From Squalus acanthias (taxonomy: Eukaryota): a DNA stretch of 64,000 nt. The first letter of the stretch is position 1. Each line of letters begins with the position of its first letter. The position numbers and the translations under genes were made by a program. Below are positions 12,023 to 61,236 of this stretch, piece after piece. The notes beneath the pieces were generated by a model. It ran no database searches and had not been told where the DNA came from. It worked only from the letters and a program-made list of their open reading frames with translations. The DNA lies in contig CM059446.1 in the NCBI GenBank assembly GCA_030390025.1, forward strand, positions 43,276,001-43,340,000, in the 5' to 3' direction.

Positions 12023-13610
12023 GTAAGTAGACAGGTTTGGTTTCTTGAGATTTTTTGAAACCAGAAGAATTTTCCAAGAGAAGAAATATATTTTAAAACA
12101 GCAATTATAAAAGTAATTACCCAGCCATTAAAAAATCACAATGGAACAAAATATTTGTATTCTAGAATGAAACTAAAAAATGTTAATTGTCAAATTATTG
12201 TTCTGCTTAAACATTAACTTAGCACTTGTCATTGACTCAAAGTACAGTATTCTTGTGTAGAGCCTGAAAATGTAGACAGGATAGGAATGAGTACAAACTG
12301 TTCAGCTCTTTCTATGTTTAAGACGGGCAGCTCCATCTACGTCTTGCCCTCGTGTCAAGCCTTACACTTAGAATGTTTTTACACCATGCTTTGCTGCATT
12401 TTGTTTTGTACATTTACAATTCTGATATAAAAAGTGCGGGCTCCTGAGCTTGTCACCAACATCAGTTCTTTGTTTCTGGCTCTGAACAAAGAAATGATTG
12501 GCTTCTCTCTCATCAATCTCTTTCATCATTTTGAATATAGTCCTATCTATTCCTCCTTCATCTTCCTTTTCCAATGAAAACATAACTTGGCTCTATTTGC
12601 TCTTTCTCGGAGATCAATGACCCAAGCTTCAGATTCAGTCTAGTCGATCTTCTTTGTCCCATTTCCTAGGTACAAAGTGTTAATGTTAGTTCATTGGATT
12701 TATTTTTCATGGACATTTATAGAATCTGATGTATATGTCATATCTTCATGCAATTTATTAATTGTCCTGTGATCGCAGGAGTGGGACTTAGAAACTGATG
12801 TGACTTGCATGGATGTTACTAAAAAGATGACTTTTGCGCTCCACCCCTCTACCAACGGTTCAGTTGATAAGTGTCCCATGTGGTGGAAGATTGTAAGTGT
12901 TTCCCTGGTTTCTGCTACAGTTAGTTGGCCTAACAAAGGCAGGAATGATGGTGCTATGGTAGGCCCCAACAAGCCTCCTTGCTAGGGAAAGGAAATATTG
13001 GCCAGGGTTCCCATTGAATGTTTAACCATTTGAGTTATGCAGGAATCGTGCTGGTGCATGTGAGGATAGTGACTCTGCTGTAATGGCAACCATTGTTGAG
13101 TAATACACCAACACTCACTGTTCAGTTTCACACATGAAGAAAGGATACTTGGACAGGATGCTGAAGAGTCACCACTGCCTATGCTACTAGAGAATATTAT
13201 GCAGAAATAATGTTCATTAAAATAAGATGTAAAACCTCCAATATAATTTTAGATACAGAGGGTACTAGCTGAATGAAAGACGATTACAAGCCGCAAATTC
13301 GTTTGAGTGGTTCAGATGATGCCATCTTAATTCTGTGATTGGATTACTGCATTTAATCTTCTTCCAATTATCCAATGTGTCTATTTTTTCCCCTTTTTGG
13401 CCTCCATAGTTTGTATTGTGCTGTTGACTAGTGACATAAAATTACTTGTAACAGCAGGATTTTTAAATAGTGAATTGCAAAACATTTCTCGATTGTTCAT
13501 ATATTTTCCTAAAAGCATGTAATGTGTAACACAGTGATGTAAAGTTGGGGGCGGGGGGGGGGTCGAGGATTGGAAGAAAAAAGATAATGATGAATTTCTC
13601 TTTCTGTCAG

Positions 13611-13752
13611 GTTGGTGCAAGTGAAGATGGAAAAAGAGCAGTATCAGAGTGAAATTAGAGACCTGCAGGACCAGCTCTCAGAAATGCACGACGAGCTCGA
13701 TCGTGCAAAAATCTGTGTTGACAATGAAGAGGAAAAAGAGACTTTGATAATG
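13611..13752 (+). CDS. CGNL1: CGNL1 internal exon D
   Basis: tttctgtcag|G ... ATG|gtaagt. 142 bp; LVQVKMEKEQYQSEIRDLQDQLSEMHDELDRAKICVDNEEEKETLIM, containing the CGNL1 hallmark EIRDLQDQLSEMHDELD. Confidence 0.95.
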
Positions 13753-15359
13753 GTAAGTAGATAAAAATTCAAAGATCAGCCTATTCCTCCCTCTCCGCAC
13801 TCAGTTGTTTGCCAAGTTCCCTTTTCATTTACTGAAATGCTAAAATTTTAAAGGGGAAGGGAAGTCTGGACCTTTTTTTTCTCCCAAGGCTCCTTCCCTT
13901 TGATAGAAGAAAATAATGGTGACACTTCAAATTACTTCACTTTTCTTGCCAACATGGAGATCCTTTGAGTAGGGTCTCCCTCCCTCCCTGTTAGGCCACT
14001 TCAGTAATTGGGAGCTGCCCAAACAATGAGATCACTCTACAAGCTGGGAATGCAGATTTCTCAGCTGGAAGAAAGATTTTCCAGGATTAGGCAGCTCCAG
14101 AACCACACTCGGGCTTGAAGTCGCCCCCACCCCACATTTTTCGCAATAGACCCTCTCCAGTACGCATGGCGATGTTTAATGTAAGACTGTCACTTTCTTC
14201 TCTAAAAAGGGGAAAACTGAATTAAAAAGTACTCCCCTAAACTCTCCTTGCCCCTTTTAAGTATGTTGCACCACTATGCAAACAGTCTATTTGTTGTACT
14301 CTGATCCAAATTGTTAGTAAATTGGATCTTCAGTTTAAGTGGCAACCCTTGTCGTTCCTTCAACATGGAATGCACCATTTATAAAATCCTCTGCAAATCA
14401 GAGTGCTTCCTTTTACGGGTGGCGAAAGTGGTGCAAATTGTGCAAGCAGTCCTGGGTGATACAGGATGGAACTGTAAACATTCTGGATCATCAGCTTTCA
14501 GATGCAATATAATGGTAGAATGGTATGATACAATTGGTGAGCCTCCTCAGTCCGTAGAGGCAAGTAGATTTGATTGGCAGTCGTTCTGTGAGTTGGACAT
14601 TGTGATCAGGAAGCAATCACTAGACTACCTGAAGGATGGAATTTTATTGTTTTAGAAAGAATTACAAAGAAATGTTCCACAGTTCTTTACACAATATTCT
14701 GCATTGAAACAGCTGAAATTACATCTAAATTTATGCTCACTGCCTGCGATGGGCTGGAACAAAAATGTTCATTTTTGCTTATTTTTTGTAACATTTCAAC
14801 ATTTTCCATTTTATTGTTCAAATGCCTTCATGAGTAATGAATAGAAAGGCCAACATAAACAAATGTTTTAACTTCCTTCTTGACATAGTTATCAAGTCAG
14901 ATTTGAGATTCATTTCAATATTTCCATGCACTGTCTTTTGCTTTAATTTTCCTCAGATTTAGTGTTCTCCCTTTCTCTTGCGACAAAATGTCTTCAGCTA
15001 CAAAAGGTGGGACAACCCAGATCACCGACTTCTCTATTACTGTGGCTGTAAAAAAAAAAATTAGAGAATATTTTGTGCTCGATGACTCGGTTGCTGAATT
15101 ATACATAGCCTGATGTGAAGCTGATGGATATAAGCAGGTTATTAAACTTTGACTGTGATCAAAGAGCTGGAGGGTTATGGGGGCAACGTGAGTAAGCTTA
15201 ATATATTCAAAGGCCAGATGAGGCTGGAGATAAATTCCCTCCTGTCATAAGGTCCCCCCCCCCATAAGATATTGGATATATCCCAGCAAAAGCAGTTAAT
15301 ACTATGTTGATTAATATATTTTTTTTAACTCCTATATAATTATTTCTTTTAAGATGCGA

Positions 15360-15690
15360 TTGTATGCTGACCAGGAAAATCCCAGATTCAATTCCAGGCA
15401 GGCCCTGTGCTGTGTTAGGTGATCTCAGCCGGGGTGCTAGAATTGGTGTTGGCACCCTTGGGTTCCCTTCCCTGATCCAATCAAGCAACCTTTGTTAGAA
15501 ATGTGTGTGTACGGATGTTTAATAAGGAGAGGATTGACTGTAATACCCCATGTCGTTGAATATCTGATGATACTCACTTTCTACACTCAAACACAGACAA
15601 TGGCTCCTTGGGCGAGATACTGGAGGCTGTCTGGTGCTCCTGAAACCACATTGTAACACCAGCAATAGAGAAAGTGGGGCAATAATTGGT
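15360..15690 (+). mobile_element. Old SINE-like interspersed repeat (one of about 7 degenerate copies in the window)
   Basis: B-box-like ccagattcaattccagg. Shared blocks recur at about 1780-2120(-), 9230-9545(-), 12960-13190(+), 16060-16300(-), 31380-31960(-) and 43000-43390(-). Confidence 0.5.
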
Positions 15691-17099
15691 CAGAAAAACA
15701 TGGGTTTGGAACCCACAAGGATTAAAATAGATGATTGAATACTCCATGGCACATGATGGTTTCTGGGACTATGACATATATCACCTGTGGAATCCAGCAG
15801 GCCGGAATTGAAGTGTGAGCATTATTATCATGGAATTTTACTCAATTACTTTCAGGGATCTGACATTTTACAGTGTTATTTTCTTTCAGCTGTATTTAGT
15901 TGTCCTGCTCCTTGAATTCAATGGCTTGAGAAAAGTCCATGATAGAACAAATTGTACATGGTCTGTGGAAGGAATAGCTTAATGGACTGAATTCTACAAT
16001 GTTCTATGTTTTTGTAACAGGAGACGAACAGCCGTTATGCTTCCCTCCCCTGCTGTACTTCCCAGCATTCCTCATCCAACATCCAAACACATCGCTTACA
16101 GCAGCGGCCACTAGATAGCAATCAGGAGCAGAAACCCAAGCCAATATTCCCTCCTTAACCCAGATACACTGAGGCCAATTGTACCTCTACAGTCAACCTA
16201 GTTGAGATTATGTAGCACAGCACAAACCAGGGACTGAACCTCAGGACTTTCTGTGTGTATGTCTCAGCTACTCACACTGGATTAAACTCGTTGAGCCTTT
16301 GGGGAAGTCTATTTTTTTAAATCAGTAAGTGTAGATTAACTGCACTCTTGAGTAGAATCCTCTGAAGGAGCTGCAAAATGGAATTTGTGTAAATACTATT
16401 CTGACCCTGATTGTGGATCAAATGAGATATGGGGTGCTAATGCGTAATATTGTTATTTAGCAAAATGCATTTGCAAATTGGGTAGATGAATGATTTAGGA
16501 GCTTAGAGCTGGGCATTAAAAATTGAACACATTTGGCCACAAATGCTATTTGGAGCACGAACATAATTAAATGGCTACAAAGATACTTGTTTTTAAAGTG
16601 AAAATAAGTGTGTTACTAAGCCATACAGATCAGAATGAGCCATATTTTATTCATGGTCTGTGTTGAATTAGTTGTTCTCAGCTGGACTAAATGCTGCTCA
16701 GCAAGGGAGGAGAAAATCTGTGCTTGATTACCATCCCGGGATCCTGCTCGAAAGTTCTTGTTTGTGGACCTTGGGTGATGTTGGACTCAACACTGATGAC
16801 CTCCATATTAAAATAGACCGCTGACACTCGCATAAAAATGGTCTTCTGGGTTAGGTACCAGAGGCCTTCTAGTGCCTGTGGAACCAAACCCCAACAGGAG
16901 TCAGCACCTTCAGGACAGGTGAAAAATTTCGGAGTACTGTTGCAAATGAAGATTAAGGAGGCTAATAAAATCATCAGAATGTTTCTGTTGTGTGTACAGT
17001 ACATATTTTAAATGACTTCTCTCAACACAAAACTGTGTTAATGGTGTTTGTATCAGTGATGTTATTGGCAATGCACGTAAATATTGTGCCTGGTTCCAG

Positions 17100-17312
17100 G
17101 AAATGATTGAGGCAAAGCAGCAGCTGCAAGAGGTGCTGATAGCTAAAGAAGATCAGCAGGAGGTGTTGAGGCGAAGAGAAAGAGAGCTGACAGCACTTCG
17201 AGGTGTCTTGAAGGAGGAGGTGTCAAGCCATGACCAGGAAGCAGAAGATCTTAAAGAACAGCATGAAAAGGAGAAACAGAAACTAAAGAACAGCATTGAA
17301 GATCTAGTGCAG
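17100..17312 (+). CDS. CGNL1: CGNL1 internal exon E
   Basis: tggttccag|GAA ... CAG|gtgagt. 213 bp; EMIEAKQQLQEVLIAKEDQQEVLRRRERELTALRGVLKEEVSSHDQEAEDLKEQHEKEKQKLKNSIEDLVQ (cingulin-family RERELTALKGALKEEV motif). Confidence 0.96.
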
Positions 17313-18624
17313 GTGAGTTAACAATTGGCTTACAAAATCGCCTTTTTTGGAGATATTTTGGACAGGGTAGTGGAACTGATGGGAAAAAAAATCTTTCAAT
17401 TTCCTCCCCCTTTGTGGTATGTATTGCATGAATACAAACCCATATATCCCGCAATGTCCCTGTCAGCTTCAGAACTCCAAAATGTGCCTGTGTATGACTA
17501 CCTGAAATAACATTGTAAAAGAGGCTCACTACATTTTGTAAAGATAAACTTCAGCTTGCAAGCCATAGATTTCTTGTAGTACTTTGTGTTTAATACTTTA
17601 ATGGGTAGCAGATTTTTTTTTTAAGTAATTGCCAGAAATAACACTGGGTTCACTCTTCCTAAGATCAAACTTGCCATGTTGTGGAATGATGCTCATTGTG
17701 GGGCAGCATCCACTTGCTATTTGTTTGCAAACATCTGCGTTTGTCATATTTTAGATACTACATGGGTATTGGTGCAGATGAATATCACATGCTATGATTC
17801 TCTGTCCACTCTCATATTCGCATTAGAAAATGTTTTGGCATATATGCACAATGGTGGAAATGAGTGCAGTAAAATCTTCCTCATATCTATTAATTGTGCA
17901 GATAGACCATTCTCTTAATGAGCGGTGCTCTGAAGCATTTCACTTTCTAAGAAAGAGCTGTAATTGTAAGTGACAAGATGAAAGATATGTTTGTTATGTG
18001 CTACACTTGGCCTGAAAAGTGCCCTATAAGTAGGTCAATGTGGCTGAAGGATGGGGCTATAAATAGAGTAGTTCTTTTCTCTCTGTGGCATTTTAATGTT
18101 CTTGTGTTTGCACAATTAAGTTTCAAGGTTAATTAGTTTAAATTCTTTTACAAGCAAAGAGACATTTTCTTTCATTTACAGTAGAGTAAATTTCAAGTTT
18201 AAACTAATTGCTAAGTCACCTTCCTGGCTGTGTCATTTGAAAGTAGTTTACTTTGGTGTTACAGTTTCAAAATGATCATACTGCTACTGCTGAATGTCAA
18301 ATAAATTCTGGATTTGATTGTAGTTAATTACTCCAAACAAGTGGAGATGCACAATCTCCAAATAGCATTCTCCCCTTTTAAACTTTTGCAGCATGCAGCT
18401 GGTGATTGTGGGGCCTTTTCGAGGGTCAGTGGGCTAAAAGCATTTGTCTTCTGCTCCTCTGATCTCTTTTCACAAACCCTGAAAAGGTTGGATTGCAGTA
18501 GCATTGGGGTGTTCGCGATCAGGTTGTTTATTTTGTTGTTGGCTGTCTGTGGTGCCGTACGGCATGCTGCAGATAGCATACCACCGATGTAAAAAATGTG
18601 TTAAGGTGATTTGATTCTGTTCCA

Positions 18625-20335: not shown

Positions 20336-23300
20336 GGCCGCGATTTCCCCTACCTCAGCGGCTCCGGTGCGACCGGGGTCGGTGGCAGGTCCCGACCTCG
20401 CTGCTGGCACCAGCCCGCTGTCCAAAGTGATTTTACGTTAATTGGGCTTGTTAAGCCCGCCCAGCGCGTTTGCCGGCCAATTGAAGGAAGCGGGCCTGAT
20501 GACATCACTTGATGACACGTCATCAGCCGGTTTCCTTAAAGGGACCATGCGCAAATTGATTTTGACAGTTGTGCTGTCAGTGTTCTACAGCATTGAGGTG
20601 CTACAAGCACTGTGCAGAGGTGCAGGACTTCACCCAGGCTCTCCCATGACTCTCTCCATATGCTTATGGAGGGAGTCACAGCACACAGGGAGGTTCTCTT
20701 CCCTTCCAATGGGCGGAAGAGACCTCCCCAGGGGATCAACGCAGCCTGGTTGCACATTGCACAGGCGGACACGAGCAGAGATGTCATCAGGAGGACCAGG
20801 CTGCAGTGGCGCCAACCTTTCAATGATGTTGGCTGTAAAGCGCTTTGAGACGTCCGGTGGTCGTGAAAGGCGCTATATAAATGTAAGTCTTATTTATTTA
20901 TTTATCTCAGTAGATCACGAAATGTTACTGCAAAGCCACACTCAACCTCATCCTGCTGTGCCACTCATCACATCCCCATAACTCTGCCTTCCCTACCCTA
21001 CTCCTGCATATCCTTACTCACACCAACTTAGCTTGCACCTCCACCCATCCCTCTCTATCTACATTATCACTTCCCCATCTCACTAGCCACCCATCACACT
21101 CACCCTCGTCCTAGTCCAATCATACCAACGAACAACACACAAGGGTAGGCACTTCTGTGTTTTATCTAATGTTCATGTGAAGTTTCTGTTAATGTGCTGT
21201 CAAACATTGAAATCTTTATTTTCAACACTTTGCGTTCTTGGACAGATTTGTTTGCACCTTTGGAAGTGGCTTAGTGAGTTGCAGTGAATGGTGAGACATA
21301 ACGGTAACCCCCCCCCAATTGTGATGAGTGTGAAAGGAATGGCTTGGGCATTGTAGGGATGCTTTATGGTGTTGGTGTGGAGTGGTGCCAACCTGGTGCA
21401 TCATGTGGCAGCCAGGGGTGTACAGCGTCAAGGGAAGTAAGTCTGGCTATGGTGAGGCCATTCCTGGACTCCGGGGCAGCAATATGGTCGGGTGCTGATG
21501 CCCTGTGTCCTCTGCAGCATCAGTTGATTGCAGAGAAGGTTGGTGATGGTGTTGGTGCTGCTGGTGTGCCTGGTGCTGCTGGTGTTGAGGCTGATCGTGG
21601 TGGGATTCTGAGGACCAAGGTGAGATAGTTTCAAGGGCACCAATGCTGATGTAATAGATGGCAGGTGAACTTGAGATGACCGAAGCGATCTGTCAATGTT
21701 GAGAGAAGTTGTTCCAATGAGGTGACACTGGATACAGAGTTTACTCCAAACACTTGCAACCTGCATAAAGCTCAATCTGTCTTCCAAATGCAGTAAGCAA
21801 CAGCTTCTGAGCTTGGAAACTGAACAGTTATGAGATGGGAGCTTTATAGCACATTTATATAGCATGCTCAGTCACTCAACCAGGAAATACCAAGACTGGT
21901 TCGACGAGAACGACCAGGAGATCCAGGAGCTAATAAGCCGCAAGCGCAAGGCATTCCTGATCTGGAAACAGCAACAGAACTCGAGAGCAAGAAAGCAGCT
22001 CTACAGACGCCTGAAGGCCGAGGTCCAACAAAAAACTCGCGACCTAAAGAACAGATGGTGGGTGGAGAAAGCGCAGGAGATCCAGCAGCTAGCCGACAAC
22101 CACGACGTGCGTGGATTCTTTAGCACAGTCAAGACCGCCTACGGCCCAAGCACCCAAGGTCCTACCCCACTGCGGGCCAAGAACGGAGAGGTAGTCATCA
22201 AGGACAGAGAGACAGTCAGTGCCCACTGGAAGGAGCACTTCGAAGATCTCCTTAACCGAGACTCTGTCTTCGATGCGAGTGTCCTCAACTCCATCCCGCA
22301 GCATGCTACCCGCCACCATCTCAGCACAACCCCAGCCCGGCATGAGGTTGAAAAGGCCATTCGACAACTGAAGAACAACAAGGCCTCGAGCAGATGGAAT
22401 CCCTGCCGAGGCACTAAAGCATGGCAGAGAAGTACTACTGGCGTGAATTCATGAACTAATTTCTCTTATCTGGAAGGAGGAGAGCATGCCAGGGGATCTC
22501 AAAGACGCCGTAATTGTGACCTATCTTCAAGAAAGGTGACAAGTCCGATTGCGGTAATTACAGAGGAGTTTCCCTGCTGTCAGCACAGGGAAAGTCATCG
22601 CAAGAATCCTCCTCAATCGCCTTCTTCCAGTGGCCGAAGAACTCCCAGAGTCGCAATGCGGATTCCGCCCACTAAGGGGCACAATGGACATGATCTTCAC
22701 CGCACGTCAATTACAAGAGAAATGCAGGGAACAACACCAACTGCTGTACATGGCCTTCTTTGATCTCACAAAGGCCTTCGACACTGTCGACTGTGAGGGA
22801 TTATGGAGTGTCCTCCTCAAATTCGGCTGCCCTCAAAAGTTTGTCACCATCCTCCGCCTGCTTCACGACGACATGCAAGCCGTGATCCTAACCAACGGTT
22901 CCACCACAGACCCAATTCACGTACGAACCGGGGTCAAGCAAGGCTGTGTCATTGCACCAACGCTCTTCTCGATCTTCCTTGCTGCAATGCTCCATCTCAC
23001 CCTCAGTAAGCTCCCCACTGGAGTGGAGCTAATTTACAGAACAAACGGGAAACTGTTCAACCTCCGTCACCTCCAGTCCAGATCCAAGGTCGTCCCATCC
23101 TCTGTCGTCAAATTACAGTATGCAGACGACGCTTGCGTCTGCGCTAACTCGGAGGTCGAACTCCAAACCATCGTCAACACCTTCACTGAAGTGTACGAGA
23201 GCGTGGGCCTTACACTAAACATCCGAAAGACAAAGGTCCTCTACCAACCTGCCCCCACCACACAGTACTGCCCCCCGATTATCAAAATCCACAACAAGGC

Positions 23301-24417
23301 CTTGGACAACGTGGACCACTTTCCATACCTCGGGAGCCTACTGTCAACAAGGGCAGACATCGATGACGAAGTCCAACACCGCCTTCAGTGTGCCAGTGCA
23401 GCCTTCAGTCACCTGAGGAAGAGAGTGTTTGAAGACCAGGACCTCAAACCTGGCACTAAGCTCATGGTCTACAGAGCAGCAGTGATACCCGCTCTCCTGT
23501 ATGCCTCAGAGACATGGACCATGTATAGCAGGCACCTCAAAGCACTGGAGAGGTACCACCAACGCTGCCTCCGCAAGATCCTGCAAATCCATTGGCAGGA
23601 TAGGCGCACCAACGTCAGTGTTCTCGCTCAGGCCAACATCCCCAGCATCGAAGCTTTGACCACGCTCGATCAGCTCCGATGGACGGGTCACATTGTCCGC
23701 ATGCCCGATACGAGCTCCAGCACGGCAAGAGAGCCCCAGGTGGGCAGAGGAAACGCTTCAAGGACACCCTCAAAGCCTCCTTGAAAAAGTGTAACATCCC
23801 CACCGACACCTGGGAATCCCTGGCCCAAGACCGCACAAAGTGGAGGAGAAGCATCCGGGAAGGCGCCAAACACCTCGAGTCTCTTCGCCGGGAGCAAGCG
23901 GAAGCCAAGCGCAAGGAGCGCACGTCAACCCAAGCACCCCACGCACCCGCCCCTTCAACCACCGTCTGCCCCACCTGTGACAGAGACTGTAGGTCCCGCA
24001 TTGGACTCATCAGTCACCTGAGAACTCATTTTTAATGTGGAAGCAAGTCATCCTCGGTTCCGAGGGACTGCCTAAGAAGATAGCACATTTGCAGCTGTCA
24101 AGTAAATAGATGATTTCATGGTAACACAACTCCTGACCTGCTTACCTGACGCCCGAGCAGTGTAGACCCCGTGGGCGACCTTGTAAAATTTAAAGATGAG
24201 CTCAAAATACTTTTTAAGTGGCTCTTAACAAGGTCATAATGACTTAAATTGCCACCCCTGCCGCTGCGTGTCGGGTCTGTTCAGCATTGACAGACCCGAC
24301 ATCTGGGAAAGTCGTGTGGCGGCGGGTTGACAGCGGGTTCCCTACCTGCTTCAAAAAAATGTTTTCCCACCAAACGCGCCCACTGACCCCCCCCCCCCCC
24401 CCCGAAAAATTCCCCCC
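20336..24417 (+). mobile_element. PIF/Harbinger-derived element carrying a Myb/SANT-like ORF remnant, interrupted by an RTE LINE
   Basis: Ends ggccgcgatttcccc ... gaaaaattcccccc. ORF 20612-20848 (PRLSHDSLHMLMEGVTAHREVLFP...AAWLHIAQADTSRDVIRRTRLQWRQPFND) fits the Harbinger Myb/SANT (NAIF1/MSANTD-like) pattern. Confidence 0.7.
21857..24079 (+). mobile_element. RTE-clade LINE, 5'-truncated, relatively young
   Basis: ORF pieces of 196, 384 and 118 aa with QCGFR, FFDLTKAFD, GVKQGCVIAP, LQYADD, YLGS and a terminal C2H2 finger CPTCDRDCRSRIGLISHLRTH. Tail ggactgcctaagaaga; 11-bp TSD atagcacattt (21846-21856, 24080-24090). Confidence 0.93.
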
Positions 24418-25191: not shown

Positions 25192-26135
25192 ACAACAACA
25201 ACTTGTATTTATATAGCGCCTAGTAAAACATCCCAAGGCGCTTCACGGGTGTTATAAGACGAAAATTTGACACCAAGCCACATAAGAAGAAATGAGGGCA
25301 GATAACCAAAAGCTTGGTCAAAGAGGTAGGTTTTAAGGAGCGTCTTAAAGGAGGAAAGAGAGGTTTAGGGAGGGAGTTACAGAGCTTAGGGCCTCGGCAA
25401 CTGAAGGCATGGCCACCGATGGTTGAGCGATTATATGGTGGTGAGGTAGAGCTGGGTGTCGTCAGCGTACATGTGGAAACTGATGCTGTGTTTTTGGATG
25501 ATGTCACCAAGGGGCAGCATGTAGATGAGAATTAGGAGGGGGCCAAGGATAGATCCTTTGGGGACCCCAGAGGTAACGATGCAGGAGCGGGAAGAGAAGT
25601 CATTGCAGGTGATTCTCTGGCTATGATTAGATAGATAAGAATGGAAACAACAACAGAAAACGCTGGAAAAACTCAGCAGGCCAGGCAACATCCGTGGAGA
25701 GAGAAACCGAGTTAAGAATGGAACCAGGCGAGTGCAGTCCCACCCAGCTGGATGATGGTGGAGAGGCGTTGGAGAAGGATGGAGTGGTCAACCTGTGTCA
25801 AAGGCTGCAGACAAGTCAAGAAGGACGAGGAGGGATAGGTTTACCTTTGTCACAGTCACAAAGGATGTCATTTGTGACTTTGATGAGAGCTGTTTCGGTA
25901 CTGTGGCAGGGGCAGAAACCGGATTGGAGGGATTCAAACATGGAGTTCCGGGAAAGATGGGCACGGATTTGGGAGGCGACAACACGCTCAAGGACTTTGG
26001 AGAGGAAAGGGAGGTTGGAGATGGGGCAGTAGTTTGCAAGGACAGAGGGGTCAAGGGTTGTTTTTTTGAGAAGAGGGGTGATGATGGCAGATTTGAAGGA
26101 GAGGGGGACAGTACCTGAGGAGAACGAACTGTCCA
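25192..26135 (-). mobile_element. L2-clade LINE fragment with internal deletion and a 66-bp insertion
   Basis: GVPKGSILGP...HMYADDTQLY, LLDLSAAFDT and PISNLPFLSKVLE on the minus strand. The RT region is joined directly to the 3' tail near 25432. Confidence 0.88.
25647..25712 (-). mobile_element. Short PLE-derived module (sequence downstream of the hammerhead), inserted with a TSD
   Basis: TSD taagaatggaa at 25636-25646 and 25713-25723. The insert is homologous to 58281-58346 and 45792-45855. Confidence 0.8.
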
Positions 26136-27753: not shown

Positions 27754-28226
27754 CATGATGTGGAGATGCCGGTGTTGGACTGGGGTGGACAAATGTGAGA
27801 AGTCGCACAACACCAGGTTATAGTCCAACAGCTTTATTTGAAATCACAAGCTTTCGGAGCGCTGCTCCTTCGTCAGGTGAAGTGAAGAGATGCATATAGG
27901 CACAGCATATATAGTCAGAGAACACAGCCAGATGATTACAGTTAATCTTTCCAACTGCCCTTTATCACACCTCGGCAGAGAGATAATCACGGCAATCAAA
28001 GGTGTGGATGGTGTCCAAACCGGTCAGTCAGGAAAACATTACATCAAAGACAATGTGGCAGATGCTGGAGTCTGTATGGAAAACAAAAAACTTTTTTTGC
28101 TGGAAATCACAGCAGGTCCGGCCACATCTGTGTAGAGAGAACAAGCCAACGACGACTCGAGTCTGGATGACTCTACGTCAGGTGGGGTTACATGTAGCGT
28201 GACATGAACCCAAGATCCTGGGTAGC
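27754..28226 (-). mobile_element. Penelope-like retroelement 3' end
   Basis: Homologous to 4254-4691 and 10304-10354. 8-bp TSD ctgatagc at 27746-27753 and 28227-28234. Begins in the last codons of the PLE ORF (DLGFMSRY). Confidence 0.8.
27844..27880 (-). ncRNA. Minimal type I hammerhead ribozyme motif (PLE-associated)
   Basis: Minus strand: UCAC CUGACGA a GGAGC agc GCUCC GAAA gc UU GUGA. 4-bp stem I, intact core, palindromic AGCU stem III. Confidence 0.75.
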
Positions 28227-32692: not shown

Positions 32693-33529
32693 GGGGCTCG
32701 ATTTTGCCAGTCCTGGGGAGGCGGGTTTAGAAGCGGGTCTGCCAGTAAAATGGCAGAATTTGGGGGCGGGTGCCCAACCCGCCTCCATGCCATCTTGCCA
32801 GGAGGCGGGTAGCCGTCCTGCGCCGGGTCCCGTCTCCTTGGAGGTGGGATGGGATTACAGCCACTTAACTGCCTGTTAACAGGTAGTTAACAGGCAGAAA
32901 ATAGGATTAACCCCTTTTTGCCCTCACAAGTGCAGGCTTCCCGAAGGCTCCAAAACCTGCCAGGGTCACCGAGGCGAGTAGTGGGTCTGCGGGGGTCGGA
33001 GGGGTCCAAAAGTGTGCTGTGGAGGTGAGTGATGGGTGCAAGTGTGGAGAGGTGAGTATCTGAGGTAAGTGCAAAGTGTTAGAAAAAGCGTACTTACCTT
33101 TGTTTCTTCCTGCAGGCTTCAAGAGTTGGGTATGTGGAGAGTCTCACACCTCCGCGGTAGAGATGACAGATGGCTGTTGCATTCTCCAATGCAACAACCA
33201 TCTAATTTCTACAAAAGAAAGAGGTTTGATGAGGTCTTGAATTCAAGAACTCATCAAACTACAGAGAATGTCAGTGTTTGACAGCTTCACAGAGCTGTCA
33301 AATGATGACAATTCATCTGTCAAAAATCTTTGACAGATGAAACGTCATACGTTGACGTTCTCTGTAACCGGCTTTCCCTTAATTGGCCTGCTAAGCCCGC
33401 TGGGCAGGCTCAACAAGGTCAATCAAGGGAAAATAGCGTGGGTTGGCCAGAAGTTGATGGAGGCGGGACTGAAACCTGACAAGTGGGAATCCCACCTCCA
33501 AAAGCTCCCCATTGGCAAAATCCAGCCCC
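32693..33529. mobile_element. Harbinger-type MITE
   Basis: TIR ggggctcgattttgcca / tggcaaaatccagcccc. The 5' part resembles 818-1000. Confidence 0.7.
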
Positions 33530-45782: not shown

Positions 45783-45855
45783 TGAAACATTAACTCTGTT
45801 TCTCTCTCCAGATGCTGCCTGACCTGCTGAGTATTTCCAGCATTTTCTGTTTTGA
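45783..45855 (+). mobile_element. Short PLE-derived module (hammerhead 3' half plus tail)
   Basis: gaaacattaactctgtttctctctcca...gatgctgcctgacctgctgagtatttccagcattttctg, homologous to 58273-58346; begins about 24 bp after the exon F donor. Confidence 0.7.
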
Positions 45856-46041
45856 TTGCATTAGTCACTGTTCCTTTCCTGGCAATTCTACTGCTTTGGA
45901 GAAACATAAGCGCCATCTGAAACAGATTCAAACTCGTGTGTCCGAGTTGAGAGTGTCAGCATTCCAATATAGCAACATTATGTCTCATTAAACTTCGATT
46001 CAGAGATAAACTTAAAGACTCTTCCACTATAACTTTTACAG

Positions 46042-52150: not shown

Positions 52151-52843
52151 GGGGGAAAAATTGGGTTGCTTTGCGCCTCCCGTTAGCGCCCTAAGAGGGC
52201 GCTAACGGGGCGCAAAGCAACAAGTGCCCAGGCGCGGCGCCGCCAACGCCTCCCGTGAAATTCAGCGGGAGGTTAGCAGCGGCACTAACCGTTAACGCCC
52301 CGTGGCGTTGCGTCGCCGGCGATGACGTCATCGCCGGGCGCAGCGCCCCGGCCGCGATCTTCGGTAGCGCCCCTGACTTACCGCCGGACGCTATGTCCGA
52401 CGGGGTAAGGGGGGCCTACCTGCGGCCGGGGCGGCGCTATTTAAAGGCGAGGTGCCGGGCAGTCATTTTTGTTGCTGGCCGCCTGCCAGCACCTGCCTCC
52501 GCTCCCGTCCCCGACCTCCTTACCCACCCCCCTGCGGAGTGCCGGCTGCGCTCCAGGAGCCCGGCACTTCTCGAGTGCTGGACCAACTTGCCAGCACTCC
52601 CGATCCCCGGGGGCCCAGCTGGGCCCCGGGTCGCGCTGCGCAAGGCCCCTCCCCTTTAAGAAGTGTAGGAAGGCTTGCAATACTGCGGCAAGTAGCGCCG
52701 CTATATTCCCTCGGAGCGCCCCAAGAGGGAGGTGGGGTGCTTCCAGTAGCGCCCCACTTCCCTCTTGGGGCGCAACCACTCAATTTTGGTAGCGCCCCAG
52801 CGAAGTTAGCGCCCCAAAGGGGGCGCGACTCAATTTTTCGCCC
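52151..52843 (+). mobile_element. GC-rich MITE sharing the family X left end but with a different interior
   Basis: Starts gggggaaaaattgggttgctttgcgcctcccgttagcgcc, ends actcaatttttcgccc. Exact 3-bp TSD TAT (52148-52150, 52844-52846). Confidence 0.85.
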
Positions 52844-53129: not shown

Positions 53130-54319
53130 GTAATGCAAGATAACTATGTTTATTTAACCTTTGACCAAAGGACTTCTAAAGAAAGTTCAATTCAGTGGAA
53201 AGTTGAACAAATTCTTAACTTAACACAGAAACTGCTATTGCATTGGTAAAATGACATTTTAGAAATGTTTATTTGGACCCAAGGTTCATTTTGTAGAATA
53301 AGAGTGGCAGAAAAGTATATTTGCCATTTGCATCATTCTAAACCTTGTAAAAGATTGTTGTGAAATTGTGATAACTTGGACTTCCTAAATATCTTTATAC
53401 AGAAACCATTTGCACCTTCATTGCCACATATATGACATGTGCTTTCAATATTATTAACTACAAAAAAACGATTATTAGCTTTTCTACCTAATCCTCAGAT
53501 TTTTTTTCCCCCATTAAAAAGCTCCTTGATTTGTTGTACGTACTTCAGACAAAACATTTAATAATTTATTTAAGTAGTGTTTCAGAATTTCTAGACTGGT
53601 GGGCTCAGTTGCTTGCAGTATACTCAAAGCTTCTTGCTCTCTGTTAGAGAAAGAAAGAGTACATTAAAGAACAAAACCCTACACGTTCAAGAGTTGGTCA
53701 GCCATAGACAAATACATTTATGAACTTTTGCTCAGCAACCAAAGCATAAACTTGTTCATACACTGTAATCCTAATTGGCAGAGTGAAACTTTTCAGCAAC
53801 AGGCTTACCAGCATTCCTTTGAAAGAACCATTCATTCCACACCTGTTTATGTCCTATTTTATCTGATGATCAACCCTAACCCCATCCTTTGCCAATGCAA
53901 AACTTTTCCAAAAGTGGCATCTCTATTGCCAAAAAATATGTCTTCAAAATGCCAATCATATTGAGACATCACGCTAAACTTTCTCTCCCATTTATTTTAG
54001 CGTGGGCATATACACGTTCCATAAGAATGAATCCCAAAACTGTCAACCGATTTCCCATTGAAAGCACTGGAAATTGTGACCAACAGTTAAAGATTACAAA
54101 AGCCACACTTGGGAACCTGAGGTTTCTTTGTTTCCTTAAAAATTTCCTGTCCTCACCAGTTGGCTTCAGAACAAACTGGTTGCTTTGTGGCATTCTTAAT
54201 TCACAATCTTGTGATGCTAAAAGTGGGTGGTGATTCTCTTTGTGTTTACCATAAGGTTAAAAAAAGTAGCCCCTGGCATTTCTAGAGCATCCTAGTTTCA
54301 CTGAGAAACTGGTCTCTGG

Positions 54320-54697
54320 TGCCAGACTTGGCTCAGTGGTAGCATTCTTGCCTCTGAGTCAGAAGGTTGCATTCCAGTTCCAACCCAGAGACTAGAGCAC
54401 ATCATCTAGGCTGACACTTCAGTGCAGTACTGAGGGAGTGCTGCACTGTCAGAGGTGTGATGTCGTTTTGCTTGAGATGTTAAACTGAGGCCCCTGTCTG
54501 CCTGGTCAGATCCCGTGGCACTTTTGGAAGAGTGTCCCTGCCAACATTAATCTCATTGTTGTTTATGGGACCTTGCTAAATTGGCTACTACATTTCCCTA
54601 CAGTGAGGACATTTCAAAAGTGCTTCATTGTGCTGCGAAGCACGTTGGGATGTCCTGAGATTGTGAAAGGCGCTTTATAAATGCAAGTTTGTTTTTT
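54320..54697 (+). mobile_element. DeuSINE (SacSINE1-like): tRNA head, Deu-domain-like core, L2-type tail
   Basis: A box tggctcagtgg; core ctaggctgacacttcagtgcagtactgagggagtgctgcactgtcagagg; tail gtgaaaggcgctttataaatgcaagtt. Confidence 0.75.
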
Positions 54698-55550
54698 TCT
54701 GCTCTCTTTTTGGCATAAGTGGTGACCTGCTAAACTGAACAAAGAATGCTAGTCATAAAGCTTCATGCTTCTGCCTCGGGAACACTCTCCCAGATAATGC
54801 TGCTACCTGGAGTTCTGTTGTTTAAATATAGGCCTGACCGTTTCTAGCCGAACCAGGATTGCAGAAACACGCTGTTGCCTGATACAGTATAATTTCTCCA
54901 ATCCTTCTCTCTCCCCCAGCAGCCATGTCAAATTTGTGGGATGTCTTATTAAGTAGTTTCTAGTTCCACCCTGTTACATCTGCTAATATGCCATGGAAAA
55001 AAATATCCCGTCTAATCTGGGTTGCACTAATTTGGGAGATGGCAGCTCAATCCTGCTTGCCAGTACTTTAGCACGAATCTTAAGATCACAAGTCAGGAAT
55101 GAGTACATCTGGTAGGAGGTGCATTTTGGGGTATCTCTACATTTCTAATTATCTAGTTAATTCACTGCATCTCAGAATGTGTCAGATGCAATTATATAGG
55201 TTCTACAGCAAACTTTATTGTTACAAATAGTCACAAGGATGTCCAATTTTCAAATTTGACCAAACTTTCTAAAACCTGCTTAAGGGAGGTTGTAATATCG
55301 TGCACTCAATTATTAATCTTCGGAAGGTTGAGGGGGTCTAGGAATTATCACACCTCTACATCACTTGATCCACATTGAGCAGGATATAGTTTCCTCATGG
55401 AATTATGGAAATTCCGAGTGCATGTCTTCCTGTCGGTGTGGATAGAATCTCCTGTAGCGCCAAGAAAACATCTGGTTCTCTCGCTGAAGCTGGTGTACAA
55501 AAAGGCAGTTTTCATGATATTTTTATTTTATGTTGACTCTCCTCCTGTTT

Positions 55551-57598
55551 GAGGGGTGGAGGGGGGTGGGGGAATGGTGGAGGGGGGGGTGGGGGGATGG
55601 TGGAGGGGGGGTGGAGGGGGGTGGGGGAATGGTGGAGGGGGGTGGGGGAATGGTGGAGGGGGGGTGGGGGGATGGTGGAGGGGGGGTGGGGGGATGGTGG
55701 AGGGGGGGTGGGGGGATGGTGGAGGGGGGGGTGGGGGGATGGTGGAGGGGGGGTGGGGGGATGGTGGAGGGGGGGTGGGGGGGGCGGGGGGTGGGGGGAT
55801 GGTGGAGGGGGGGGTGGGGGGGGGGGGGGGTGGGGGGATGGTGGAGGGGGGGGTNNNNNNNNNNNNNNNNNNNNNNNNNNNNNNNNNNNNNNNNNNNNNN
55901 NNNNNNNNNNNNNNNNNNNNNNNNNNNNNNNNNNNNNNNNNNNNNNNNNNNNNNNNNNNNNNNNNNNNNNNNNNNNNNNNNNNNNNNNNNNNNNNNNNNN
56001 NNNNNNNNNNNNNNNNNNNNNNNNNNNNNNNNNNNNNNNNNNNNNNNNNNNNNNNNNNNNNNNNNNNNNNNNNNNNNNNNNNNNNNNNNNNNNNNNNNNN
56101 NNNNNNNNNNNNNNNNNNNNNNNNNNNNNNNNNNNNNNNNNNNNNNNNNNNNNNNNNNNNNNNNNNNNNNNNNNNNNNNNNNNNNNNNNNNNNNNNNNNN
56201 NNNNNNNNNNNNNNNNNNNNNNNNNNNNNNNNNNNNNNNNNNNNNNNNNNNNNNNNNNNNNNNNNNNNNNNNNNNNNNNNNNNNNNNNNNNNNNNNNNNN
56301 NNNNNNNNNNNNNNNNNNNNNNNNNNNNNNNNNNNNNNNNNNNNNNNNNNNNNNNNNNNNNNNNNNNNNNNNNNNNNNNNNNNNNNNNNNNNNNNNNNNN
56401 NNNNNNNNNNNNNNNNNNNNNNNNNNNNNNNNNNNNNNNNNNNNNNNNNNNNNNNGGGGATGGTGGAGGGGGGGTGGGGGGATGGTGGAGGGGGGGTGGG
56501 GGATGGTGGAGGGGGGGGTGGAGGGGGGGTGGGGTGGGGGGGGGGTGGGGGGATGGTGGAGGGGGGGATGGTGGCGGGGGGATGGTGGAGGGGGGATGGT
56601 GGAGGGGGGGTGGGGGGATGGTGGAGGGGGATGGTGGAGGGGGGGATGGTGGAGGGGGGGTGGGGGGATGGTGGAGGGGGGATGGTGGCGGGGGGGTGGG
56701 GGGATGGTGGAGGGGGGGTGGAGGGGGGATGGGGGGATGGTGGGTGGGGGATGGGGGGATGGGGGGCGGGGGGGATGGTGGAGGGGGGGCGGGGGGATGG
56801 TGGAGGGGGGGTGGAGGGATGGTGGAGGGGGGGCGGGGGGATGGTGGAGGGGGGGATGGTGGCGGGGGGGTGGGGGGATGGTGGAGGGGGGGCGGGGGGA
56901 TGGTGGAGGGGGGGAGGGGGGATGGTGGAGGGGGGGCGGGGGATGGTGGAGGGGGGGGAGGGGGATGGTGGAGGGGGGGCGGGGGGATGGTGGAGGGGGG
57001 GCGGGGGGGATGGTGGAGGGGGGATGGTGGAGGGGGGATGGTGGAGGGGGGGATGGTGGCGGGGGGGTGGGGGATGGTGGAGGGGGGGTGGGGGGATGGT
57101 GGAGGGGGGTGGGGGGATGGTGATGGGGGGGTGGGGGGGATGGTGGAGGGGGGCGGGGGGATGGTGGAGGGGGGGTGGGGGGATGGTGGAGGGGGGGTGG
57201 GGGGGATGGTGGAGGGGGGGTGGGGGGGATGGTGGAGGGGGGTGGGGGGGATGGTGGAGGGGGGGTGGGGGGGATGGTGGAGGGGGGGGGTGGGGGGGAT
57301 GGTGGAGGGGGGGATGGTGGAGGGGGGGTGGGGGGGATGGTGGAGGGGGGGTGGGGGGGGGATGGTGGAGGGGGGGTGGGGGGGGGATGTGGAGGGGGGG
57401 CGGGGGGATGGTGGAGGGGGATGGTGGAGGGGGGGTGGGGGATGGTGGAGGGGGGGCGGGGGGGATGGTGGAGGGGGGGCGGGGGGGATGGTGGAGGGGG
57501 GGCGGGGGGGATGGTGGAGGGGGGGTGGGGGGATGGTGGAGGGGGGGGGGTGGGGGGATGGTGGAGGGGGGTGGTGGAGGGGGGGGTGGGGGGATGGG
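55551..57598. repeat. G-rich tandem repeat, unit about 20-22 bp (GGGGGATGGTGGAGGGGGGGT)n
   Basis: Directly visible on both sides of the N gap. Confidence 0.97.
55855..56455. other. Assembly gap (about 600 N)
   Basis: Run of N within the G-rich satellite. Confidence 0.99.
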
Positions 57599-58246
57599 TT
57601 GAGCTCACGTTGGACGCAGGTCGCCAGGCTTCTGTGGAGCCATTATCTTAATGTTGTTGCAGGAAGCTGGCAATCTTCCCTTCCAACTGGGTCTGTTTTG
57701 CTGTGCGCTTTGTTTTGCTTTGTTATAGAAGAGCAAGCAAAAATATCACAGTATCAAATTACGTTGACACTCTCTTAATAGCAAAGCACCTACATCAAGC
57801 TGCAGATGGATGAATTCATACATAAATTCTCAGTAACTGGGTACTGATCCAATCTAGCAGTACTTCTAATGCAGTCTACAAGTACAAAAAAATGATTTTG
57901 AATTATGAGGAGTAGTCTATTGTATTGCTCTACTAATCCTAATACGGAGTTAGACAGTCAAAAATAATCAATTATGGAATAGCTACTATGAAATAGAAAA
58001 AAAAGAGTGAAGGTCGCTCTTGGATTTAACTTGTGTCAAACGGGGTCTAAATCCTTACTGCGCGGCTCTTTTTTGAAAAGCCACGTTGCAGTGCAGCCAT
58101 TAATTCATGCAGTGCAGCTAAATCCTGCAGGACGTTGGGGAAACCCTTACATCCGGGGTTCCCGTCTGGAAGTCCTCCCCCCACCTGCCCACCCCGGTTT
58201 TCTTTGTGGCCCTGAGTAAATATTGGTGCCAACGTTTCAGGTCCAT

Positions 58247-58285
58247 CAGTTCTGATGAAAGGTCATCGACCTGAAACGTTAACTG
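58247..58285 (+). ncRNA. Minimal type I hammerhead ribozyme motif
   Basis: CAGUU CUGAUGA a AGGUC auc GACCU GAAA cg UU AACUG. 5-bp stem I, intact core, 5-bp stem II, palindromic ACGU stem III; predicted cleavage after 58280. Confidence 0.75.
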
Positions 58286-59225
58286 TGTTTCTCACTCTCT
58301 CCACAGAGGCTGCCGGACCTGCTGAGTGTTTCCAGCATTCTCTGTCTTAATTTAATAACTTTGCTTGAAACTCATAACCCTTTTACATATGAATGTGGTC
58401 CCTTTGGTAGTTCAGTTGTTGAATGGATAAAAAGAGTTAAGCTCATCATAATTTAATTATTATCTTCAAAGATCAGGTTTTTTAAACCAAAATCATCATC
58501 ATTAACCAAATTGCCACTGATGTTTTCTGTCAAAAATCTGTTTGTTTGCAATTGTTTCCGAACTTGAAGATGCCCCATAACCAATTTAGTCCCACTGACC
58601 AAGATCATATAACTCATCTGCCATGTATTTACTTCCTTCTATGTAATCTCAGTGTTGGCTCAGATTTTCTCTCTTGCATCCCTCTGCACCAAATTCATGA
58701 AGTGGAATTTGAGCACAATGGACAAGATATGTGGTTGTTTTAAATTCAGTTCAGATATTTAATAAATTTGATGTTTTATATTCTAGTGAGTACTATGGAT
58801 TCAATCAGAAATAATTGCTGGAGATTATGAAGCTGTAATGTTGAATAAAATTGCTTATTGTACTGATCGGTATTGATAAGGTTCCAGTGAAGGCTTGTCA
58901 TGTTACTGCCATCTATTGGCTAGAGGTGGGATCTCTAGTGTTGCGCATCATTTAAAAAAAAATCTCATTTCCTTGTTTTCCCACGCCCAAGCCATTAAAG
59001 AAAACGGGTAGATGACTGGTTTGTGTGCCCCACTTCTCTGCCGTTGCTGCTCTCTGCGTGCTACTAGGGGGTAACCTGAGAGCAGCCCATGGTTGCTTGT
59101 TTGGCAGCTTTTCCCAAAGTGCGAAAACTGTAAAACAGGTGCAACAATTTTGAAATTAGGCCTCGGTATTTTTAAATAGAACAAGAGTATTTTATTTTCT
59201 AACGTAAGACTGCTTAAGACCTCTT

Positions 59226-59788
59226 GGGGTAAAAATTCGATTGCGTTTCGCCCAGTTTTCAAGTGCTAAATCGGCATTCCACATAGCGATTTTTGCGGTG
59301 GTACTTCCCGCGCAAGAAGTGCATATGATAGGCGGCGTCCACCATATTGATTAAAGTGTCCTTGGGTGTCTCTGGCGGCCACCTGAAATGAACGCTGGCT
59401 CATTAAAATATATAACTAGGGGTCGAGCGCTTCAGTTAGGACCCTTTTGGGGAAATTGGTGCCTGGGTGCGTTCAATTCAGTGATTCTTAAGCTCGCCAA
59501 GAAACACATGGCGCGAACACTCAGGAAGCAGGCTGCAGCAGCAGCAGCATTTAAAGGGACACCCACCTCCATTAAGATAAGTCTCTGGATAGTCGTTTTT
59601 GGCTGCTTGAGATTTTTGGCGCCATTCTTTGGCTGAGTTTGGAAAGTCTTTAATATTAACTAGTTGTTGGGAGAGCTGACCTTTGGCTGCAGCTGCACTC
59701 TGTCACTTCACTGGCTGCAGGAGTACTGGGAAAGATGGGAGTCTTGCTGGGAATGCCATTGAGGCTGCCACACCAGGAGGAACAGCAG
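59226..59788 (+). mobile_element. Left end of a Harbinger-type element (truncated)
   Basis: Terminal ggggtaaaaattcg resembles the family X TIR; CpG-rich subterminal region, tttaaaggga box and a following ATG segment. Confidence 0.45.
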
Positions 59789-60930
59789 GGAAATGCGGCC
59801 AACTTGCACACAGGAAAGTCCCACAAACAGCGACGAGATAAACGACCAGTTAATCTGTTTAATGGTTATCCACTTTGGCAGGAAAAATTAAAAAAGGCAA
59901 ATTATTATTTAAATGGAGAGAGATTACAAAAGGCTACAGTTCAGAGGGACCTGGGGGATCCTTGTGCATGAAACACAAAAAGTTAGCATGCAGGTACAGC
60001 AAGTAATCAAAAAGGCAAATGGAATGTTGGCCTTTATTGCAAGGGGGTTGGAGTATAAAAGCAGGGAAGTCTTGCTACAACTGTACAGGGTATTGGTAAG
60101 ACCACACCTTGAGTACTGCGTACAGTTTTGGTCTCCTTATTTAAGGAAGGATATACTTGCATTGGAGGCAGTTCAGAGACGATTCACTCGGTTGATTCCA
60201 GAGATGAGGGGGTTGACTTATGAAGAAAGGTTGGGCCTATACTCATTGGAATTTAGAAGAATGAGAGGTGATCTTATTGAAACATATAAGATACTGAGGG
60301 GGCTCGACAAGGTAGATGCAGAGAGGATGTTTCCCCTCGTGGGGAAATCTAGAACTCGGGGGCATAGTTTCAGAATAAAGGGTCGCTCTTTTAGAACTGA
60401 GATGAGGAGGAATTTCTTCTCTCAGTGGGTCGTAAATCTGTGGAATTCTCTGCCCCAGAGAGCCGTGGAGGCTGGGTCATTAAAGACATTTAAGGTGGAG
60501 CTAGACAGATTTTTGCAAGATAAGGGAGTGAAGGGTTATGGGGAGCGGGCAGGGAAGTGGCTTTGAGCCCAAGATCAGCCATGATCTTATTGAATGGTGG
60601 AGCAGGCTCGAGGGGCCAAGTGGCCTATTCCTGCTCCTATTTCTTATAATCTTATGGTGTCAATTTGAGGGATAAGTGTTCGTCAGGACACAGGGAGAAT
60701 TCCCCTGCTCTTCTTTGAATAGTGCCATGGGATCTTTTATGCCCAGCTGAGAGGGTAGACGGGGCCTTGGGTTAACATCTCATCGAAAGACAGCACCTCT
60801 GACAATGCAGCACTCCCTCATTACTACACTGAAGTGTCAGTCTAGATTATGTGCTCATCTCTCTGAAGTGGGGCTGAACCCACAACCTTCTGGCTCAGAG
60901 GCAAGAATGCTCCCACAGAGCAAAAGCTAA
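59789..60930 (-). mobile_element. DeuSINE (SacSINE1-like) split by a CR1 insertion
   Basis: 59789-59866 and 60657-60930 are consecutive parts of the reverse complement of the SINE at 54320-54697. Confidence 0.7.
59867..60656 (+). mobile_element. CR1-clade LINE 3' fragment
   Basis: 217-aa ORF with ANGMLAFIARG, LVRPHLEYCVQFWSP and VVNLWNSLP; tail gatcagccatgatcttattgaatggtggagcaggctcgagggg; short atggt repeat at both junctions. Confidence 0.93.
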
Positions 60931-61236
60931 CATTTAGGCATACTTATTTGGTTTTCAAAGCTTTATTGTCATAAAAAGTAATTTATGAAATCTAGGGGAA
61001 AAACTTATTTTCTTCACATTTAAATTGACTAATATGGCGATAATCACCAAAATAACTGAAGTTAAAATAATCTACTTTCAAAACATAAAATGCTGTAAAT
61101 ACACGCTAGGTCTGTAAAACTCTGATTAGAGAAACGATAGCCTTGTTGTACATGTCCAGGAATTTCTGTTTTTAGTTGAGCATTTACAATTTTTTTTTAA
61201 TAACCTGTTGGTATGGTCTGGGGTATTTTGGATCAG

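What the first reader, a model, noticed from the sequence alone, without database searches (positions are those of the whole stretch)
58231..58346. Intact minimal hammerhead ribozyme, sense to the CGNL1 pre-mRNA, with a built-in antisense clamp
Seen: CAGUU(58247-51)-CUGAUGA-A-AGGUC/auc/GACCU-GAAA-CG-U-U-AACUG(58281-85), which is a complete type I hammerhead core with 5-bp stems I and II and a palindromic ACGU stem III. Directly upstream, aacgtttcaggtc (58231-58243) is the exact reverse complement of gacctgaaacgtt (58268-58280), and catcag/ctgatg forms a second hairpin. Known: Penelope-like elements and non-LTR retrozymes carry minimal hammerheads with palindromic stem III that cleave efficiently mainly as dimers, and PLE insertions often have inverted 5' segments. 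Inference: this motif is transcribed in the sense direction within a CGNL1 intron. The inverted copy would sequester the catalytic core, which may explain why a potentially self-cleaving RNA is tolerated here.
Basis: partly seen in the sequence, partly recalled or inferred. Interest (0 to 1): 0.72.

Follow-up and report, generated by a model that had tools for sequence, protein, structure and literature searches.

The report
Folded-back Penelope hammerhead stub in intron
A 115-base piece of a very abundant shark repeat, likely the tail end of a Penelope-type jumping gene, sits in an intron of CGNL1 and carries an intact self-cutting RNA motif that an adjacent mirror-image copy is predicted to fold shut; the mirror copy is likely an ordinary insertion by-product rather than a safety catch.

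Summary
58247-58285 fits the published minimal-hammerhead descriptor of Penelope-like elements and lies sense in an 8.1-kb CGNL1 intron. The 13-bp and 6-bp complementarities are one inverted arm, 58231-58249, lacking 10 bases. It is predicted to suppress the hammerhead fold about 10^7-fold.

The reading 'tolerated because clamped' is not supported. The motif begins a repeat that drew about 16,000 contigs in each of three whole-genome-sized runs of related species. Other copies also switch strand near this point, and the palindrome centres on the family's commonest 5' end. Inverted 5' copies are a described Penelope insertion signature. A tested minimal hammerhead monomer did not cleave detectably, no second family core lies in the window, and hammerhead cuts in introns need not block splicing. 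Selection on the clamp could not be tested, and no link to a Penelope ORF was shown here.

One oddity remains: the arm ends exactly at the predicted cut site. The scan noted this kind before in the same genome (e1-7790103, e1-7790369). New member of a known kind; interest 0.17.

The parts
58231..58249 (-). Inverted arm: reverse complement of 58252-58280 with 58258-58267 missing. Its last 3 bases (58247-49) are also the first 3 of the direct copy, so only 58231-58246 is extra sequence. Its outer end pairs with 58280, the base 5' of the predicted cut.
58247..58345 (+). Direct, 5'-truncated copy of a high-copy repeat (family 1), likely a Penelope-type pLTR tail
   Evidence: 15,869-18,618 contigs laid per large run; loose ends pile up before 58247-49 and behind 58344-45; 3 further copies in the window
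58247..58285 (+). Minimal type I hammerhead motif (min-HHR)
   Evidence: descriptor from PMC4209133 Fig. S7
58247..58251 (+). Stem I 5' arm (CAGUU)
   Evidence: sequence
58252..58259 (+). [quoted passage not shown]
   Evidence: sequence
58260..58272 (+). Stem II, 5 bp, 3-nt loop, closing pair A10.1-U11.1
58273..58280 (+). GAAA-CG-U-U; loopless palindromic helix III; predicted cleavage after 58280
   Evidence: sequence; cleavage untested
58281..58285 (+). Stem I 3' arm (AACUG; other copies read C at the last position)
53130..61236 (+). Host intron of CGNL1 (cingulin-like 1)

Best explanation
58231-58345 is a short copy of a very abundant shark repeat that carries a minimal hammerhead motif and a 19-base inverted copy of that motif at its 5' end; it is likely a dead, 5'-truncated Penelope-like insertion whose inverted arm likely arose during insertion, and the arm is predicted to fold the motif shut without having been selected to do so. 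Likely steps: (1) reverse transcription from the element's 3' tail stopped at the family's commonest 5' end, 58247 (the end is shown; the mechanism is inferred); (2) the cDNA end folded back on the CAG/CTG at that end, or met a second cDNA there, and copied the core in reverse, losing 10 bases across stem II (geometry shown; mechanism inferred); (3) the insertion became fixed before the split from organisms B, C and D (shown in part); (4) in CGNL1 pre-mRNA it would form a 13-bp or longer hairpin and not cleave (predicted), and a lone min-HHR would barely cleave anyway (literature). It is most likely neutral intronic debris.
For: Exact fit to the published min-HHR descriptor. Summed depth about 10^6 over 58251-58331 against about 4-14 on the unique flanks in three runs (not a copy number). 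Loose ends before 58247/48/49 are the commonest listed (X8: 549/188/220 contigs, agreement 0.34-0.46), so many copies start at stem I, where the palindrome is centred. 9 of 15 listed joint rows are strand switches; 8 of these 9 leave from 58248-58263, at contigs other than the orthologue. Inverted 5'-truncated copies and palindromes at the inverted junction are described for PLEs (PMC8557442, PMC3846280), as are min-HHR pairs on opposite strands (PMC4209133). The orthologue in organism C spans 57900-58276 with its 22 gap letters all outside the arm, so arm and deletion are old (X8 record 25, table 4). Three more window copies have different 5' ends and about the same 3' end; one has an 11-nt target duplication. 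Monomer inactivity (PMC4209133) and protein dependence (PMC11167929).
Against: No link to a Penelope RT/GIY-YIG ORF was shown here: no genome, no hits in three collections. No target-site duplication longer than 5 bases at this insertion. The arms match 19 of 19 while the tail differs from two window copies at 9 of 75 and 10 of 63 aligned bases; the chance of no mismatch is 0.14 at 5% and 0.018 at 10% divergence per arm, though 0.31-0.56 at the 1.5-3% that the orthologues set as a minimum, and the locus was picked for being perfect. In this window the only complete sense motif is the clamped one and both unclamped complete motifs are antisense, the pattern the rival predicts (n=3). Tandem retrozymes are under-represented in Xenopus introns (bioRxiv 10.64898/2026.07.22.740005). 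The arm ends exactly at the cut site, which fold-back alone does not predict.
Confidence: 0.8

Rival explanations
1. Selective filter: sense intronic copies with an intact core are harmful because they cut pre-mRNA, and this one was fixed because its inverted arm silences it.
For: Predicted suppression of the fold by about 10^7 at 37 C and more at 15-25 C; arms perfect at 19 of 19; arm present without gaps in organism C; in-window orientation pattern, n=3; retrozymes avoid Xenopus introns (bioRxiv 2026, passages); a fast ribozyme in an intron can abort splicing (Fong 2009 as cited in PMC2995048).
Against: No detectable monomer cleavage of a tested min-HHR and only low activity as dimers (PMC4209133); no partner core in the window; A10.1-U11.1 instead of G-C; hammerhead cuts in introns allowed splicing (Dye 2006 and Fong 2009 as cited in PMC2995048); strand switches recur at other copies; at 3% flank divergence an unchanged 19-mer is expected about half the time, so sharing with C shows age, not constraint.
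Confidence: 0.08
2. Twin priming on a self-cleaved RNA: the arm is a second cDNA started at the 3' end of the 5' cleavage product (U17), so the insertion records hammerhead cleavage during retrotransposition.
For: The arm's outer base pairs exactly with 58280 and the next base does not pair. The copy at 25653-25715 has an 11-nt target duplication and its 5' junction falls within 2 bases of the cut site, blurred by microhomology. 2 of 15 listed joint rows leave the element at 58280 (sides of only 31-33 letters). The anole PLE protein nicks and extends both target strands (PMC11167929).
Against: One locus, noticed after the fact; AACGTT is itself a palindrome that could favour a turn; 58280/58281 is not among the 24 loose-end rows shown (566 hidden); the other two window copies do not start at the cut; the anole study found no reads ending at the cut and no need for cleavage in vitro.
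Confidence: 0.08
3. A domesticated, switchable intronic ribozyme that regulates CGNL1 splicing or abundance.
For: Intact core, sense orientation, shared by at least organisms A-D in part.
Against: Member of a very high-copy family; no monomer helix III; the hairpin is about 12 kcal/mol more stable than the hammerhead fold (ensemble -41.4 against -29.8), so no plausible switch; no evidence of constraint.
Confidence: 0.03

Closest known systems
Minimal hammerheads (min-HHR) in pLTRs of metazoan Penelope-like elements (Cervera and De la Pena 2014, PMC4209133)
   Same: Fits the Fig. S7 descriptor exactly; extra nucleotide after A9; palindromic 15.2-16.2 with no loop 3; mostly single, dispersed copies; GUU triplet occurs in their table.
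   Different: A10.1-U11.1 instead of the conserved G-C (A-U also occurs in their Latimeria(2) and D. willistoni rows); no shark among their 56 listed motifs; the inverted partner here is a partial, directly abutting copy, whereas they mention opposite-strand pairs about 100-700 bp apart.
Inverted 5'-truncated copies and junction palindromes of EN+ PLE insertions (Arkhipova 2013, PMC3846280; Craig 2021, PMC8557442)
   Same: Head-to-head inverted copy directly at the 5' end, palindrome at the junction, missing TSD in some copies; interpreted as self-priming.
   Different: Only 19 bases, internally deleted, ends at the predicted cleavage site rather than in the tail; no ORF at this locus.
Poseidon element PAc of Anolis carolinensis (Frangieh 2024, PMC11167929)
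   Same: Minimal hammerhead followed by a short tail that ends the insertion.
   Different: PAc is autonomous and was assayed; its hammerhead cleaves only with protein. No sequence comparison to PAc was made here.
Animal non-LTR retrozymes (PMC7229834; bioRxiv 10.64898/2026.07.22.740005)
   Same: Short, non-coding, hammerhead-bearing, PLE-related.
   Different: They are tandem 150-450-bp repeats, mostly with canonical hammerheads; this copy is single and minimal.

Membership tests
min-HHR of metazoan PLEs | Matches the published RNAmotif descriptor (stem I 3-7, CUGANGA plus optional N, stem II 3-7, loop 3-10, GAAANNUH) | tested here: met
   (descriptor); 1 hit in 300 random windows
min-HHR of metazoan PLEs | Extra nucleotide between 9 and 10.1; palindromic 15.2-16.2 | tested here: met
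   A58259; CG 58277-78
min-HHR of metazoan PLEs | Conserved G10.1-C11.1 pair (consensus feature, with exceptions in the source table) | tested here: not met
   A58260-U58272; exceptions. Whether the family consensus has G-C was not visible.
min-HHR of metazoan PLEs | Large genomic family | tested here: met
   897 to 18,618 contigs laid per run in 4 of 4 runs
min-HHR of metazoan PLEs | Covariation of stems I and II across copies | tested here: inconclusive
   No second family-1 core in the window; one search did not show rows for stem positions (24 hidden)
min-HHR of metazoan PLEs | Self-cleavage as dimer or with protein | not testable with these tools
   needs an assay
Penelope-like element (EN+) | Motif lies in a pLTR next to an RT plus GIY-YIG ORF in full-length copies | not testable with these tools
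   No genome; no ORF of that kind noticed beside the copy (not scanned with profiles); no hits. One contig carries 934 further letters upstream of the motif (X7 record 20) but its sequence is not given.
Penelope-like element (EN+) | Strong 5' truncation with a shared 3' end | tested here: met
   4 window copies; loose ends behind 58344-45 in 4 of 4 runs
Penelope-like element (EN+) | Adjacent inverted 5' copy or junction palindrome | tested here: met
   9 of 15 listed joint rows are strand switches
Penelope-like element (EN+) | Target-site duplication (optional) | tested here: inconclusive
   None over 5 bases at this copy; 11 nt at the 25653-25715 copy; empty site not seen
Non-LTR retrozyme | Tandem 150-450-bp units with two or more hammerheads | tested here: not met
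Curated Rfam hammerhead families | Covariance-model match | tested here: not met

The most novel reading that the evidence does not exclude
The inverted arm is a cDNA started at the exact end of the hammerhead's 5' cleavage product, so shark Penelope insertions of this shape are genomic fossils of ribozyme cleavage in vivo and of twin priming on the two cleavage products; with very many copies, the open question of whether PLE hammerheads cut during transposition, and whether clamped copies are favoured in sense introns, becomes a simple genome-wide count.
Probability: 0.1. Interest if true: 0.55.

Novelty: new member of a known kind. Interest (0 to 1): 0.17.

Why it matters
As it stands it matters little: min-HHRs in Penelope repeats were described in 2014 and inverted 5' copies are a standard PLE signature. 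Two things would raise it. If arm ends cluster at the cleavage site across the family, that would be evidence that PLE hammerheads cut in vivo, which the one biochemical study read here could not show (PMC11167929). If clamped copies are enriched among sense intronic insertions, it would show selection against ribozyme-bearing repeats in pre-mRNA. The family's size makes both countable, but this single locus shows neither.

Tried and rejected
Rfam: 0 matches at gathering over the window, 6 irrelevant matches at E 2.8-8.6 over 57600-59000. Exact-pattern scans: 0 hits in metagenome, genome (44) and viral (45) contigs. Sequencing runs: no RNA holder listed on record; X7 is only guessed RNA, and contigs cannot show ends or strand. 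I laid 4 of the 20 listed runs. Presence in organism E is undecided: its flank contigs stop at 58178 and start at 58360. No empty site was seen; a 58181-58317 skip in X8 and X10 (side 37) was set aside because flank contigs of the same runs run into the element. Dimer cofolding of two cores gave an extended duplex, not a recognisable dimeric hammerhead; nearest-neighbour models cannot judge this. ESM Atlas gave only Myosin_tail_1, below its recognition threshold. Paper searches for a shark description of this family or for a clamp or twin-priming reading found none; a search on the 10.1-11.1 pair found none; PMC3365414 had nothing relevant. Look-up of earlier findings by sequence was empty, and one by words. 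Rejected: retrozyme (not tandem), two independent hairpins (one arm), chance motif.

Full report
Observation. Pair by pair, stem I (58247-51 with 58281-85), stem II (58260-64 with 58268-72) and the 13-bp complementarity (58231-43 with 58268-80) are all Watson-Crick. I coded the published min-HHR descriptor (PMC4209133 Fig. S7): it finds this motif and two motifs of a second family on the minus strand at 27876 and 4335, against 1 hit in 300 random first-order Markov windows. Rfam has no hammerhead match. The host is CGNL1: one exon matches a sawshark cingulin-like protein 1 at 94%, 11 tblastn matches lie on + from 7290 to 62141, and the motif is in the intron 53130-61236. That the organism is a shark is inferred from this match.

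Anatomy. The two complementarities are one inverted arm. The reverse complement of 58231-58249 equals 58252-58280 with 58258-58267 removed, and this is the only possible split. The arm's last three bases are also the start of stem I. Helix III has no loop and can form only between two molecules. Pair 10.1-11.1 is A-U; the source paper calls G-C highly conserved but lists A-U exceptions. The fifth stem I pair seems private to this copy. No target duplication over 5 bases flanks the insertion, and it is not in a tandem array.

The family. Three more copies of the tail lie in the window (45783-45857 +, 25653-25715 -, 28098-28139 -); none has a full core. No genome was held, so I laid contigs of 4 of 20 listed runs, from coded organisms B-E, on 57900-58700 at 80% likeness. 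They drew 897, 16,396, 15,869 and 18,618 contigs. In the three large runs summed depth is about 10^6 over the element and 4-14 on unique flank; this is not a copy number. The commonest listed loose ends lie before 58247-58249 and behind 58344-58345. So the element is 58247-58345, and many copies begin at stem I, which is the centre of our palindrome. Of 15 listed joint rows (1 hidden), 9 are strand switches, 8 of them leaving from 58248-58263; 4 go back on the same strand and 2 skip. Some 'to' positions near 58295 probably reflect where this copy differs from the family, so I use these rows only as evidence that inverted junctions recur.

Age. In organism C one contig spans 57900-58276 with 12 substitutions and 22 gap letters, all accounted for at 58005 and 58192, so the arm and its deletion are shared. 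B holds 58261-58691 with 7 differences; C and D hold 58318-58700. The insertion predates splits with about 3-5% flank divergence. Whether the arm has substitutions in C was not shown. E is undecided.

Folding. With stems I and II forced and the core unpaired, the hammerhead fold has probability 0.045-0.073 without the arm and 1e-10 to 6.5e-9 with it at 37 C; the gap widens at 15 and 25 C, and in growing prefixes the arm pairs by 58276, before stem I can close. These are relative figures from a model without tertiary energies. The clamp is a sound prediction.

Is the clamp needed? Probably not. A Schistosoma min-HHR showed no detectable cleavage as a monomer and low activity as dimer or trimer (PMC4209133). 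The anole PLE hammerhead cleaved only with its protein, and no reads ended at its cut site (PMC11167929). No second family-1 core lies in the window. Hammerhead cuts in introns were compatible with splicing, while a faster HDV ribozyme was not (Dye 2006 and Fong 2009, seen only as summarised in PMC2995048). Meanwhile an inverted 5'-truncated copy directly at the 5' end is a listed PLE trait (PMC8557442), with junction palindromes read as self-priming (PMC3846280).

Against my reading. The arms match 19 of 19 while the tail differs from two window copies at 9 of 75 and 10 of 63 bases (counted); no mismatch has probability 0.14 at 5% and 0.018 at 10% per arm, 0.31-0.56 at 1.5-3%. The locus was chosen for being perfect, which weakens this. 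The only complete sense motif in the window is the clamped one, and both unclamped complete motifs are antisense; with three motifs this is weak. Retrozymes avoid introns in Xenopus (bioRxiv 10.64898/2026.07.22.740005). PLE membership rests on motif, truncation and inversion, not on a linked ORF.

An oddity. The arm's outer end pairs with U17, the last base before the predicted cut. The copy at 25653-25715 starts within 2 bases of the cut, with an 11-nt target duplication, and 2 joint rows leave at 58280. This would fit reverse transcription on cleaved RNA. It is post hoc, the site is a 6-base palindrome, and no pile-up there appears among the 24 loose-end rows shown. I give it about 0.1.

Literature seen. 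PMC4209133: parts 1-2 of 4 of the main text and the whole supplement PDF as text. PMC11167929: parts 1-2 of 4. PMC3846280, PMC8557442, PMC6155905, PMC7229834, PMC2995048, PMC3365414 and the 2026 bioRxiv preprint: passages only. Searches found no description of this family in sharks or of a clamp; subscription papers and repeat databases were not searchable, and the preprint's supplement (one chondrichthyan genome) was not seen and may list it. Hammerhead numbering and 'twin priming' are from my own knowledge.

Earlier notes of this scan (unchecked AI notes) report fold-back Penelope hammerhead insertions, intronic copies and an intact element in the same genome. They agree but are not independent support, and I could not check that they concern the same family.

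Verdict. Real, correctly described, and of a known kind: a likely dead Penelope-type stub with a fold-back head. New member of a known kind; interest 0.17.

Noticed in passing
window 27876 and 4335, minus strand: Two complete minimal hammerheads of a second family (CUGACGAA core, 5-bp stem II, palindromic AGCU), both antisense to CGNL1, each followed by a shared tail.
   Followed up: partly
window 25653-25715, minus strand: Family-1 tail inserted in a decayed LINE-like sequence with an 11-nt target duplication; its 5' junction falls within 2 bases of the hammerhead cut site.
   Followed up: partly
window 45783-45857, plus strand: Core-less family-1 tail about 23 bases below a CGNL1 5' splice site (exon ends 45759).
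   Followed up: no
window 28098-28139 and 27876, minus strand: A family-1 tail lies about 220 bases upstream of a family-2 hammerhead on the same strand; nested or composite insertion.
   Followed up: no
window 21834-24035, plus strand: Nearly intact reverse-transcriptase reading frames of a LINE (RTE-like by recall), in several overlapping pieces.
   Followed up: no
window 33312-33341 and 52179-52209: Two other perfect hairpins of 13 bp or more; the second lies at an end shared with other repeats in the window.
   Followed up: no
window 55561-57593: G-rich 22-bp minisatellite with a 601-N assembly gap, about 640 bases upstream of the hammerhead in the same intron.
   Followed up: no
window 57616-57639 and 58299-58322: A 24-base, 75% complementary inverted match to the element's tail 659 bases upstream; possibly a decayed further copy or chance.
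   Followed up: no
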